DNA of 64,000 bases, from NCBI RefSeq assembly GCF_009914755.1, contig NC_060925.1; one strand, written 5' to 3'. Source of the stretch: the human T2T-CHM13v2.0 reference genome, Homo sapiens. Below are positions 60,596-63,035 of the stretch, in pieces. Position 1 is the stretch's first letter. Each line of letters starts with the position of its first letter. Both the position numbers and the translations under genes were made by a program. The notes beneath the pieces were generated by a model. It was given only the letters and a program-made list of their open reading frames with translations, had not been told where the DNA came from and searched no databases.

Positions 60596-61053
<458 letters not shown>

Positions 61054-61129
61054 TCACCACCTCCTCCCCTCTTTCCAGGGCTCCCCCATGTCCCATCAGT
61101 CCAACCAGCTCCCAGTCCAACCAGCTCTG

Positions 61130-61655
61130 GATCCAGATCCCAAGAGAGGGTTCTTAGATCTCACACAAGAAAGAATCCGAGGCAAATACATACAGTAAAG
61201 TGAAAGCAAATTTATTACGAAAGTAAAGGGGCTGTTCTGCCTATGGAGTAGCCATTCCTTTGCTTTCTTAATAAACTTGCTTTCACTTAAAAAAAAAAAA
61301 AGTAAAGGAATAAAGAATGGCTACTTTATAGGCTGAGCAGCCCCGAGGGCTGCTAGTTGCCCATTTTTATGACTATTTCATTTGTAAACTGTCATGGGAC
61401 TGGTGAGAGTGTAGCAGTGAGGATGACCAGAGGTCACTCTCTTCACCATCTTGTTTTGGTGGGTTTTAGCCAGCTTATTTACTGCAAACTGTTTTATCAG
61501 CAAGGTCTTTGTGACCTGTATCTTGTGCCAATCTCCTATCTCATCCTGTGACGTAGAATGCCTAACTATCTGGGAATGTAGCCCAGTAGGTCTCAGCCTT
61601 ATTTTACCCAGCTCCTAGTCAAAATGGAGTCACTCTGGTTCAAATACCTCTGACA
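61130..61655 (-). mobile_element. MER41 (ERV1) solo LTR with internal deletion and nested antisense insert
   Basis: gatccagatcccaagagagggttctt...; end ctctggttcaaatacctctgaca is the reverse complement of the MER41 5' end TGTCAGAGG. Confidence 0.9.
61230..61301 (+). mobile_element. Processed (polyadenylated) retrocopy of a MER41 LTR 3' end
   Basis: Sense MER41 segment, AATAAA 61270-61275, A13 tail 61289-61301, TSD aaagtaaagg 61220-61229 and 61299-61308. Confidence 0.8.
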
Positions 61656-63035
61656 CTAGGAGTCTGATTCAGTTCAGCTGGGTCTCACTTCCTGACCTGT
61701 TTCCACCTCAGTGCTCTAACCTGCCCATTGCCCCCTCAGCCTGAGGAAGCAGGTTTCTTTCAAGCACGTCTGAGGCTGCACTCTCACTATGCAGTACCAC
61801 ACTCCCACCCTCACTGAAAGGCAGGCCACCCCGCCCCCACAGCCCTGCCTCCATTACACAAAGATCCACCTCACCCCCACCAGAGGCCCCAGGCTAACTG
61901 GAAGGACCCTAGGCCGCATTATGGACTGTCTTGGGGACAGCTAGAGGCAGGCCTGCACCCAGATGAAGATGTGGGGAGGCAGAACAGAGTCTGGAGTCTG
62001 GAGAATTGGGCTGTCTCTTGGTTCCAATAGTGCTGTGGCAGATAAACAATTACCGAGGGCTTTCTGCAGGCCAGCCAGACAGGGGCCTAGCCTGGGACTA
62101 CTACTGTTCCCCCTCTAGGCTGCCCCCACCAGCTAGCTCTCTGCACCACACGGAACCGGAACCCGAACACTGAGCCGCACTCCCATGTCCAGCCACATCT
62201 GCTTGCTCTCCATCTCACCTTCTTCTTCATCTCCCTTTCCCTAAAACTTTTCTGAGCCTCTTCTTGTTTTCTCCCCATTTCTTCAATTTCTTCCCTGCCC
62301 TCTCCTTCTTTATTTCTCTTTCTTTTCCCCTCCTCTCTTCCCCTCTCCTGTTCTCCTCCAGAGTTCTTCCCTCCCCTCCCCATCCATCCCCCAAGTCCAC
62401 ACCCCATCCCTCCTGCCACTATATTTAGCTCCCAGCCGGGGCTTTAGAAAGGCGCCACTGCTGGAGCTGGCGTCTAGTCTTGAAGGGTCTGTCAGCATTT
62501 CCATAAGAGGCTCAGCTGGGATGAGTTTATGACTGAGCTATTTTCTTTCCTTGCCTCACCGGCCCTGGGCTGAGCATAAGCAGAAAGGGGACCTCCAGGT
62601 ACATTGGAGAGTTCTCCCCTGACATGGGCAAGCTCTTCCAAAGAAAAAGGAACTATGGGTTAAATCTTAGGTGAATCTGGGACCTAGGTAACTAGCAATT
62701 TGTGGGGCACAGCGAGTTAGGACTCTGCTATTGGTTAGGAACTCCCAGAGCCTGAGGGCAGAGCCTTCCTAGCCAGAGCGGGAGCAAATGTTTGCCCTCA
62801 GGATTCATCATATGACCTAAGCAACTTTGAAAGACTTCTTTCCCCAAAGTATTCACCAGCCTGCTATGGTCTCTGTAATCCCCACTGTTATAGCCATTTC
62901 TTTCTGTTAAACCAATGCCTCTAGAAGACCTCCTATAAAAATCATTTCCAATATTTGATGGACACATTACTAAGTGGTTTGAACACACCATTGCTTTTGA
63001 TCCTCACAATTTAGCACTTTGATGAAACTTGCTGA

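What the first reader, a model, noticed from the sequence alone, without database searches (positions are those of the whole stretch)
61198..61344. MER41 transcript 3' end retro-inserted antisense into the exact homologous segment of a MER41 LTR
Seen: the minus-strand MER41 LTR is interrupted by ~60 bp (61230-61288) that is the reverse complement of the host sequence on both sides of the insertion point. The insert carries AATAAA (61270-61275) and, 13 nt later, an A13 run with no counterpart in the host copy. It is flanked by the direct repeat aaagtaaagg (61220-61229 and 61299-61308). It differs from the host at about 7 of 62 aligned positions and lacks the host's extra aataaag. Established: 5' truncation, poly(A) and a TSD at a TT|AAGA-type site are hallmarks of L1 target-primed reverse transcription. 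Inference: an RNA polyadenylated at a MER41 poly(A) signal landed in the middle of the ~60 bp it is complementary to, which is very unlikely by chance. One coherent model is an R-loop: the RNA (from this LTR in cis, or a paralogue in trans) pairs with the + strand, and the displaced strand is nicked just 5' of its AATAAA (recalled consensus TTCTT|AATAAA, an L1 endonuclease-like site) and primes on the poly(A). That would be homology-guided or self-targeted retrotransposition. I cannot tell whether this class has been described.
Basis: partly seen in the sequence, partly recalled or inferred. Interest (0 to 1): 0.85.

Follow-up and report, generated by a model that had tools for sequence, protein, structure and literature searches.

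The report
MER41 R-region retrocopy inside MER41 LTR
A tiny RNA made from the start-to-poly(A) stretch of an ancient retroviral LTR was pasted by LINE-1, backwards, into the matching spot of another such LTR; that spot is a strong LINE-1 insertion hotspot, and the same thing happened twice in the human genome, which hints at but does not prove homology-assisted targeting.

Summary
Window 61230-61288 is an inverted copy of the host LTR sequence on both sides of it. It ends 13 nt after AATAAA in an A13 run and is flanked by a 10-nt direct repeat.

The insert is not a random 5'-truncated cDNA. It is a full-length member of a family of about 66-nt "R-only" retrocopies running from the LTR transcription start to the poly(A) site. 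At least 250 polyadenylated copies exist in this genome. Most sit at unrelated sites with their own target-site duplications.

The target, T-rich/AATAAA on the LTR sense strand, is a strong LINE-1 hotspot. About 6-9% of all copies of the site carry a poly(A) retroelement exactly there, nearly always an Alu. The hotspot alone explains the position and the antisense orientation.

A second composite lies on contig C17. It sits in a different MER41 subfamily and has a different duplication length and unrelated flanks, so it is an independent event.

R-copies make up 2 of 41 insertions at this site. Between 0.01 and 0.13 would be expected from their genomic abundance. That is suggestive, with n=2, of coupling between RNA and target. 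Whether the RNA came from the host LTR or from another copy is unresolved.

The retrocopy-at-hotspot reading is near certain. Homology or transcription-assisted capture has roughly even odds.

The parts
61126..61656 (-). Host MER41 LTR. It is the only one in the window. U3 is about 61345-61656, R is 61198-61229 plus 61309-61344, and U5 is about 61126-61197.
Evidence: Homology to 24-35 other MER41 LTR loci starts at 61126/61130 and ends at 61655-61661. No second LTR copy is found in the 64-kb window. The U3 part gave 3415 first-look candidates genome-wide; the 40 scored were 87-100% identical, the top one being this locus itself. No repeat library was available to confirm it.
61363..61370 (-). 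TATA-like box of the host LTR, 26-28 nt upstream of the G run (61344-61341) where R and the retrocopy family begin.
   Evidence: Read directly from the sequence. Longer U3-R copies carry the same box.
61309..61344 (-). Host R, 5' part. It is complementary to the 5' half of the insert.
   Evidence: Inverted repeat I2, 33 nt, 85% complementary. Alignment.
61299..61308 (.). Right copy of the target-site duplication. A 13-nt reading, 61296-61308, is also possible.
   Evidence: Direct repeat D8, 10 of 10 identical. The 13-nt reading matches 11 of 13, counted from the sequence.
61289..61301 (+). Poly(A) tail of the retrocopy (A13). Its last 3-6 A overlap the duplication.
   Evidence: Ordinary LTR copies have no counterpart; they continue into U5 after CACTT.
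61230..61288 (+). R-only MER41 retrocopy of 59-61 nt. 61228-61229 (GG) is shared with the duplication as microhomology. The unit carries a 7-nt internal deletion relative to most family members.
   Evidence: It has the same start and end as 57 stand-alone units. Its mean identity to them is 92.7%, rank 7 of 57.
61270..61275 (+). AATAAA poly(A) signal of the inserted RNA copy.
   Evidence: The cleavage point lies 13 nt downstream, at the end of CACTT, as in all 250 pattern hits.
61220..61229 (.). Left copy of the target-site duplication (61217-61229 on the 13-nt reading). The first-strand nick is on the minus strand just 5' of the host AATAAA.
   Evidence: D8. The same nick position is used by 38 Alu insertions in other copies.
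61198..61229 (-). Host R, 3' part, with the host's own poly(A) signal (61211-61216 on the minus strand) and poly(A) site (61198). It is complementary to the 3' half of the insert.
   Evidence: Inverted repeat I1, 32 nt, 91% complementary. Sequence.

Best explanation
**What it is.** A MER41 LTR can make a very short RNA. It starts at the LTR's own transcription start, 26-28 nt below a TATA-like box. It is cleaved and polyadenylated about 66 nt later at the LTR's own poly(A) site. This is the R region alone.

LINE-1 copied such RNAs into the genome at least 250 times by target-primed reverse transcription. The window holds one of these copies.

**Where it landed.** It sits in the R region of a solo-looking MER41 LTR. 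The L1 endonuclease nicked the LTR sense strand at the T-rich/AATAAA junction just 5' of the LTR's poly(A) signal. The T-rich 3' end primed on the poly(A) tail. The whole RNA was copied. The far end was joined with a 2-nt GG microhomology, leaving a 10-13-nt duplication.

**Why there and why antisense.** The junction is a strong insertion hotspot. About 6-9% of all genomic copies of the site carry a poly(A) retroelement there. Because the nick is on the sense strand, any insert must lie antisense. Position and orientation therefore need no homology.

**Shown:** the anatomy, the family, the hotspot, and a second independent case.

**Inferred:** the L1 machinery, the transcription start, and the order of steps.

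**Open:** why the inserted RNA matches the target. I put coincidence at about 50%. I put capture helped by complementarity to the un-nicked strand, or by transcription of the target LTR, at about 45%.
For: **Family.**
- The 26-mer spanning AATAAA, the R end and A7 has 250 hits with up to 2 mismatches. The reversed control has 0.
- Of 96 distinct places examined, 57 passed a crude R-only filter. Three of those 57 (L025, L026, L037) show U3 homology upstream, so they are really longer copies.
- 52 of the 57 measure 64-65 nt from CTGCTC to CACTT.
- 45 of the 57 have 1-6 G before that.
- 37 of the 57 have a flanking duplication of at least 8 nt.
- 15 further places were classed as extending into U3.
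- 94 of the 96 lie in non-MER41 DNA.

**Hotspot.**
- 630 intact copies of the 33-mer across the site were found.
- 46 hits show an A-run abutting the same 23 nt.
- All 46 were inspected. 42 are MER41 R targets and collapse to 41 events: 38 Alu, 2 R-only and 1 other.
- Independently, 9 of 96 R-poly(A) copies carry an antisense Alu whose duplication ends at this junction. The other half of R was found upstream in 6 of those 9.

**Target motif.** It fits the L1 preference quoted as 5'-TTTTT/AA (PMC12809410, abstract) and TT/AAAA (PMC5537654, passage seen).

**Second case.** C17:49939840-49939998 has the same architecture.
Against: - The window's host copy now reads CG-T rather than CT-T just 5' of its AATAAA. 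The local nick site matches the L1 motif less well than in most copies, and the duplication is unambiguous for only 10 nt.
- No empty orthologous site could be examined, because only this one genome is held.
- The transcription start is inferred from shared 5' ends and a TATA-like box. It does not rest on RNA data.
- Pure coincidence fits the counts poorly. 2 R-copies among 41 events compares with an expectation of 0.0095-0.127.
- Counts come from exact or near-exact patterns. DNA searches scored only the best 40 first-look candidates, so diverged copies are missed.
Confidence: 0.9

Rival explanations
1. Coupled capture, a sharpened form of the first reader's idea. The R RNA was chosen as template at this site because it is complementary to the un-nicked strand of the target.

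Two orders of events are possible:
- (a) An R-loop formed first. It exposed the sense strand as single-stranded DNA, which L1 ORF2p then nicked.
- (b) L1 nicked the non-template strand of a transcribed LTR first. The nick seeded an R-loop with the nascent R RNA. That RNA was polyadenylated 19 nt further on, so its tail sat next to the primer.

This adds to the hotspot explanation rather than replacing it.
For: - There are two independent events at one site, and only these two in the genome. Full-length composite matches number 2 of 40 scored in each, and the anchored pattern gives 2 hits.
- R-copies are 2 of 41 insertions at the site, against about 1 in 2000-4000 of L1-driven inserts genome-wide. 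The expectation is 0.0095-0.019 with 250-500 R-copies and about 1 million Alu, giving P(2 or more) of 4.5e-5 to 1.8e-4. A pessimistic setting gives an expectation of 0.127 and P of 7e-3.
- The Alu number comes from the introduction of PMC12809410.
- Published biochemistry makes both orders plausible. ORF2p needs upstream single-stranded DNA to nick (PMC10830416, abstract). Non-template-strand nicks raise R-loop formation up to 100-fold (PMC12478114, abstract). EN cutting is driven by DNA structure (PMC12809410, abstract).
Against: - n = 2.
- The first case was picked because it looked odd. The fair test is therefore the chance of one further case, which is 0.009-0.12.
- Neither insert shares a private variant with its host, so nothing supports an origin in the host LTR itself.
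- The C17 insert begins GGCTG while its host reads TGCTG there. That leans towards another copy as donor, although an untemplated cap G could explain it.
- None of the other 94 R-poly(A) copies examined lies in or within 480 nt of a MER41 LTR, so there is no sign of local reinsertion.
Confidence: 0.45
2. One event, inherited. The inverted insert arose once in an active MER41 element, or in a duplicated segment. The window and C17 loci are descendants, and the structure marks a rare subfamily.
For: - Both inserts start at the same base.
- Both are followed by 13 A.
- They are 96.5% identical to each other, 55 of 57 aligned positions.
Against: - The shared start is the start of the whole family.
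- The host LTRs belong to different subfamilies. The window U3 is 87-90% identical to the 39 other copies scored, and the C17 locus is not among them. The C17 U3 is 83-86% identical to 39 others, and the window is not among them.
- The two hosts align only in three blocks at 82-91% identity.
- The U3 sequence just upstream of R differs between them.
- Flanks beyond the LTRs share only Alu sequence.
- The duplications differ: 10-13 nt in the window, 17 nt on C17.
- Read with the same nick in both loci, the true tails are about 7 and 11 A (counted from the sequences).
Confidence: 0.03
3. A DNA-level inverted duplication (fold-back or template switch during replication or repair), or an assembly artefact, with the A run arising secondarily.
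For: The product is a strong palindrome-like structure.
Against: - A fold-back would place the inverted copy next to its source around one axis. Here the copy of both flanks sits inside their junction, with a target duplication.
- The insert's ends coincide with the ends of at least 250 dispersed poly(A)-tailed units.
- The insert differs from its host at 7 of 61 positions.
- A second locus has the same build.
- No reads were available to test the assembly.
Confidence: 0.01

Closest known systems
HERV-W (LTR17/HERV17) processed pseudogenes made by LINE-1
   Same: - An endogenous-retrovirus RNA is copied by L1.
- It ends at the R/poly(A) site and carries a poly(A) tail, a 5-15-nt duplication and a TT/AAAA-type site (PMC5537654, passage; PMC5016936, passages).
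- Very short copies (0-0.5 kb) were the commonest class in one data set (PMC5016936).
- MER41 is listed in the same HERVW9 supergroup table row block as HERV17 (PMC5753468).
   Different: - A different ERV group is involved. [quoted passage not shown]
- HERV-W pseudogenes are R-U5...U3-R copies of proviral RNA. Here the dominant form is R alone, an RNA that starts and ends within one LTR.
- My searches found no paper describing MER41 retrocopies. Subscription papers and repeat-library notes were not searchable.
Ordinary Alu insertions at L1 endonuclease sites
   Same: The nick, the antisense orientation and the duplication lengths are the same. The 17-nt duplication of the C17 case recurs in Alu hits L042, L090 and L099.
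   Different: The inserted RNA is a copy of the target itself, which creates an inverted repeat. Alu is about 2000-4000 times more abundant genome-wide but only 19 times more frequent at this site (38 to 2).
SINE-R / SVA 3' module (recalled; only a listing of PMC3287187 was seen)
   Same: LTR-derived sequence ending at an LTR poly(A) site is mobilised in trans by L1.
   Different: SVA is a composite, still-active element that includes U3 and env-derived sequence. The MER41 units are R only, old (about 90% mean pairwise identity) and not composite.
Site-specific non-LTR elements such as R2, whose RNA pairs with the target (recalled; not tested here)
   Same: If coupling is real, RNA-target complementarity would bias where, or which, RNA is reverse-transcribed.
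   Different: R2 has a sequence-specific endonuclease, and its homology is part of its life cycle. Here any effect would be an accidental by-product for a non-autonomous RNA using L1.
L1 twin priming / 5' inversion (recalled)
   Same: It yields inverted sequence at an L1-type insertion.
   Different: Twin priming inverts part of the inserted element itself. Here the inverted partner is the pre-existing target, and the insert is a single colinear copy.

Membership tests
L1-mediated (target-primed) retrocopy | 3' poly(A) tail that starts at the RNA's cleavage site and is absent from the source DNA | tested here: met
   A13 follows directly after CACTT, 13 nt past AATAAA. LTR copies continue into U5 at that point.
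L1-mediated (target-primed) retrocopy | Target-site duplication flanking the insert plus tail | tested here: met
   10 of 10 identical at 61220-61229 and 61299-61308. 37 of 57 family members have a duplication of at least 8 nt.
L1-mediated (target-primed) retrocopy | First-strand nick at a T-rich/A-rich L1 endonuclease motif | tested here: inconclusive
   Most copies read T-rich/AATAAA at this point; the 33-mer has 82 exact matches. The C17 case fits. The window's host copy now differs at two bases next to the nick, so the exact nick (10- or 13-nt duplication) cannot be fixed.
L1-mediated (target-primed) retrocopy | Colinear with a processed RNA and carrying no promoter of its own | tested here: met
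   The unit runs from the shared 5' end, 26-28 nt below a TATA-like box in LTR copies, to the poly(A) site. It lacks U3. The RNA itself was not observed.
L1-mediated (target-primed) retrocopy | Empty site in a related genome | not testable with these tools
   Only the window's own genome is held. There are no primate orthologues.
MER41 LTR (ERV1, HERVW9 supergroup) | Sequence match to the curated MER41 models | not testable with these tools
No Dfam or Repbase library is available. What was shown is an LTR-like repeat with thousands of first-look candidates: 3415 for the window U3 and 3904 for the C17 U3.
HERV-W-type processed pseudogene | R-U5 ... U3-R structure colinear with proviral RNA of the HERV-W group | tested here: not met
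   The insert is R only. The host and family are not LTR17, and no internal or U5/U3 sequence lies in the unit. It works like one but is not a member.
L1 twin-priming inversion | Two oppositely oriented parts of one inserted element within one duplication | tested here: not met
   The single insert is colinear. The inverted partner lies outside the duplication and belongs to the host LTR, which continues on both sides.

The most novel reading that the evidence does not exclude
L1 target-primed reverse transcription can be biased by complementarity between a poly(A) RNA and the un-nicked strand at the nick. One route is an R-loop that precedes the nick. Another is an R-loop seeded by the L1 nick in the non-template strand of a transcribed LTR. 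Either way, short LTR transcripts would be preferentially written back, antisense, into the poly(A)-signal region of their own kind. The two human MER41 composites would be the first footprints of such self-targeted retroposition.
Probability: 0.4. Interest if true: 0.75.

Novelty: new variant of a known kind. Interest (0 to 1): 0.5.

Why it matters
Three things come out of this locus.

1. MER41 LTRs, known mainly as interferon-responsive enhancers, also spawned a sizeable family of L1-made mini-retrocopies of their R region. This is a class that a review reserves for HERV-W. It implies that these LTRs were active germline promoters whose own poly(A) site was used at once.

2. The LTR poly(A) signal region is an unusually strong L1/Alu insertion hotspot. 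About 6-9% of copies are occupied, roughly 200-300 times the genome-average Alu density per base. That is a ready-made natural substrate for studying L1 target choice.

3. The same RNA hit the same site of its own family twice. This offers a concrete, testable handle on an open question: whether RNA-DNA pairing or transcription at the target influences which RNA L1 copies and where.

If no coupling exists, the locus is simply an ordinary retrocopy in a hotspot.

Tried and rejected
**Readings rejected**
- *Single event inherited, or segmental duplication:* rejected on host subfamily, flanks and duplication length.
- *Part of a MER41 subfamily:* rejected. Only 2 loci in the genome carry the structure.
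- *DNA-level fold-back:* rejected on geometry and on the dispersed poly(A) family.

**Analyses without a decisive result**
- *Host LTR versus another copy as donor.* I looked for private variants shared by insert and host. There are none in either locus.
- *Lineage markers.* Two variants in the window insert each recur in 4-5 other copies but never together. They are no lineage marker, so this test has no power.
- *More composites.* The other 94 R-poly(A) places examined have no antisense MER41 flank. The 150 pattern hits that one search did not list were not examined one by one. I rely on the two composite-query searches, which score only the best 40 candidates.

**Resources not available**
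"Solo" therefore rests only on the absence of a second LTR within the window, which shows just 2.3 kb to the right.
- No supplements were read.

**Literature**
- Searches for MER41 retrocopies found nothing specific.
- Three paper queries failed on term syntax. One search was re-sent without the barred term. Searches were not re-sent; one search was a separate MER41 query.

Full report
**1.

The plus strand of the window reads as follows:
- host sequence up to 61229;
- a 59-nt segment, 61230-61288;
- 13 A, 61289-61301;
- host sequence again.

The repeat finder reports two inverted pairs. 61198-61229 pairs with 61257-61288 (32 nt, 91% complementary). 61228-61260 pairs with 61312-61344 (33 nt, 85%). 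It also reports the direct repeat AAAGTAAAGG at 61220-61229 and 61299-61308.

I aligned the reverse complement of the insert to the two host flanks. There are 7 mismatches in 61 aligned positions and one 7-nt gap. AATAAA is at 61270-61275, and the A run begins 13 nt after it.

**2. The host**

Homology to other LTR copies runs from 61126/61130 to 61655-61661 on the minus strand. It is the only such LTR in the window.

On the minus strand a TATA-like box (61370-61363) lies 26-28 nt upstream of a G run (61344-61341). The host's own AATAAA is at 61216-61211. Its R/U5 boundary is at 61198.

No repeat library was available to check it. A review passage gives MER41 as a gammaretrovirus-derived family that entered the lineage 45-60 million years ago (PMC9963469). 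A Repbase overview lists MER41A, B, D, E, F and G in the same block as HERV17/LTR17, the HERV-W group (PMC5753468).

**3. The insert is a full-length member of a discrete family, not a truncated cDNA**

I searched the whole genome with the 147-nt composite. This returned many about 75-nt matches to the insert alone. Inspection showed stand-alone units that begin at GG(G)CTGCTCTGCC, end at CACTT, carry a poly(A) tail and have their own duplications in unrelated DNA.

The 26-mer made of AATAAA, the end of R and A7 has 250 hits with up to 2 mismatches (49 exact). Its reversed control has 0.

I examined 96 distinct places: the first 100 listed hits plus those already in hand.
- 57 passed a crude filter for R-only units. 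Three of these (L025, L026, L037) show U3 homology upstream and are really longer copies that slipped through.
- 15 were classed as U3-R.
- 21 lacked the 5' motif because they are split, truncated or diverged.

Of the 57 units:
- 52 measure 64-65 nt from CTGCTC to CACTT;
- 45 have 1-6 G in front;
- 37 have a flanking duplication of at least 8 nt with at most one mismatch, many starting A-rich.

Mean pairwise identity is 90%. The window's insert ranks 7th of 57 in mean identity to the others, and the C17 insert ranks 14th.

The common 5' end sits where a TATA-driven start would be. I therefore read the unit as the complete R region. It is an RNA that starts at the LTR's transcription start and is polyadenylated at that same LTR's poly(A) site. 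The start site is inferred, because no RNA data were available. The "missing aataaag" is a 7-nt deletion in the window's insert relative to most members. It is not an extra stretch in the host.

**4. The target is a hotspot that dictates position and orientation**

The minus-strand nick falls between a T-rich run and the host AATAAA. I searched for an A-run abutting the 23 nt on the other side of that nick. This gave 46 hits, against 0 for the control.

All 46 were inspected.
- 4 are not MER41 targets (L138, L140, L141, L145).
- L143 and L144 are one duplicated event.
- The remaining 41 events are 38 Alu, 2 R-only copies (the window and C17) and 1 unidentified poly(A) insert (L068).

The matching pattern for the uninterrupted site gave 630 hits (82 exact, control 0). 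About 6% of detectable copies of the site are therefore occupied.

An independent sample agrees. 9 of the 96 R-poly(A) copies carry an antisense Alu whose duplication ends exactly at this junction. In 6 of those 9 the other half of R was found about 300 nt upstream.

Assume about one million Alu (PMC12809410, introduction) in 3.117 Gb. The average is then about 3e-4 Alu per base, so the site is hit some 200-300 times more often than average.

The motif fits the published L1 preference (PMC12809410, abstract; PMC5537654, passage). A nick on the LTR sense strand forces any insert to lie antisense.

**5. A second, independent case**

C17:49939840-49939998 (locus L002) matches the composite over 144 of 147 nt at 84% identity. 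It has the same build:
- a minus-oriented LTR;
- an R-only unit that starts at GGCTG and ends at CACTT;
- an A run;
- a 17-nt duplication, 16 of 17 identical.

It is not the same event.
- The window's U3 is 87-90% identical to the 39 other copies scored, and C17 is not among them.
- The C17 U3 is 83-86% identical to 39 others, and the window is not among them.
- The two hosts align only in three blocks at 82-91% identity.
- The U3 just upstream of R differs, and both versions recur in other LTRs.
- Flanks share only Alu sequence.
- The duplications differ in length.

No third composite was found. Each composite query had only these two full-length matches among the 40 candidates scored. An anchored pattern across tail and duplication gave exactly these 2 hits. 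None of the other 94 R-poly(A) places has antisense MER41 sequence within 480 nt. The 150 hits that one search did not list were not examined one by one.

**6. Is the match between RNA and target more than chance?**

I scaled from the 38 Alu hits at the site.

| R-copies assumed | Alu pool assumed | Expected R-copy hits | P(2 or more) | P(at least 1) |
|---|---|---|---|---|
| 250 | 1 million | 0.0095 | 4.5e-5 | 0.009 |
| 500 | 1 million | 0.019 | 1.8e-4 | 0.019 |
| 1000 (pessimistic) | 300,000 contemporaneous | 0.127 | 7e-3 | 0.12 |

The first case was selected for its oddity. The fair figure is therefore the chance of at least one further case, which is 0.009-0.12. This is suggestive but rests on two events. 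I rate coupling at about 45% and coincidence at about 50%.

**7. How coupling could work (inference)**

The RNA has the same sequence as the nicked sense strand and is complementary to the intact strand. Two published facts make a link plausible.
- ORF2p needs single-stranded DNA upstream of the duplex it nicks (PMC10830416, abstract). An R-loop would provide this.
- Nicks in the non-template strand raise R-loop formation by up to two orders of magnitude (PMC12478114, abstract).

An L1 nick in a transcribed LTR could thus trap the nascent R RNA. That RNA is polyadenylated only 19 nt further on, so its tail would sit beside the primer.

Neither locus decides between the host LTR and another copy as donor. 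The inserts share no private variant with their hosts. The window insert's two minor variants recur separately in other copies and mark no lineage. The C17 insert's first base fits the other subfamily better, which is a weak hint at another copy as donor.

**8. Comparison with what is known**

The nearest described system is the HERV-W processed pseudogene (PMC5016936, passages; PMC5537654). A review abstract calls HERV-W the only HERV group mobilised by L1. My searches found no description of MER41 retrocopies. These searches cover open-access text only. Repeat-library notes and subscription papers could hold one.

The R-only form, the hotspot occupancy and the double self-hit are therefore, as far as I could check, undescribed variants of a known process. 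They are not a new kind of element.

**9. Present-day consequence**

The insertion sits inside R, between the host LTR's start site and its poly(A) signal. It creates a strong inverted repeat (DNA fold -33 kcal/mol, z -6.4). The hub's annotation places RefSeq enhancer features over 61448-61948, within the host U3. I did not test any functional effect.

Noticed in passing
L068 (G000:C23:47218599-47218631 and upstream): This is the one poly(A) insertion at the MER41 hotspot that is neither Alu nor R-copy. About 400 nt of unique-looking sequence end in A13 at the same nick. It may be a processed mRNA 3' end.
   Followed up: partly
L076, L131 (G000:C13:63458162, C7:129833178): Antisense Alu insertions at the same nick appear to have unusually long duplications of about 33 nt, reaching back to GGAGTAGC of R. 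By contrast, the 17-nt duplication recurs in L042, L090, L099 and the C17 composite, so the second-strand cut also seems to have preferred positions.
   Followed up: partly
G000:C1:120343001, 120934754, 144328438, 145845876, 146359687, 148743608: Six copies of one R-poly(A) unit share the same single variant (AATAAG...). They lie in the pericentromeric and 1q21 region. They look like one retrocopy carried along by segmental duplications, so the count of 250 contains a few non-independent places.
   Followed up: no
L024 (G000:C3:199097760 region): A U3-R-poly(A) copy whose U3 carries a 36-nt unit repeated about six times in tandem (window-U3 positions 181-215).
   Followed up: no
window 61097-61127: A perfect tandem duplication of CAGTCCAACCAGCTC (15 nt, spacing 16) lies immediately outside the detectable U5 edge of the host LTR. 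The C-rich stretch 61000-61125 matched none of the 31 MER41 LTR loci compared.
   Followed up: no
window 60619-60917: An Alu element with an A-rich tail lies about 200 nt from the LTR. It accounts for the only similarity between the flanks of the window and C17 loci.
   Followed up: partly
L002 1740-1785 (C17 host LTR U3): Two closely spaced TTCC-N-GGAA-like motifs lie in the U3 segment that the window's host LTR lacks. They recall the STAT1 sites described for one MER41 subfamily (PMC9963469, passage). The subfamily names could not be assigned.
   Followed up: no
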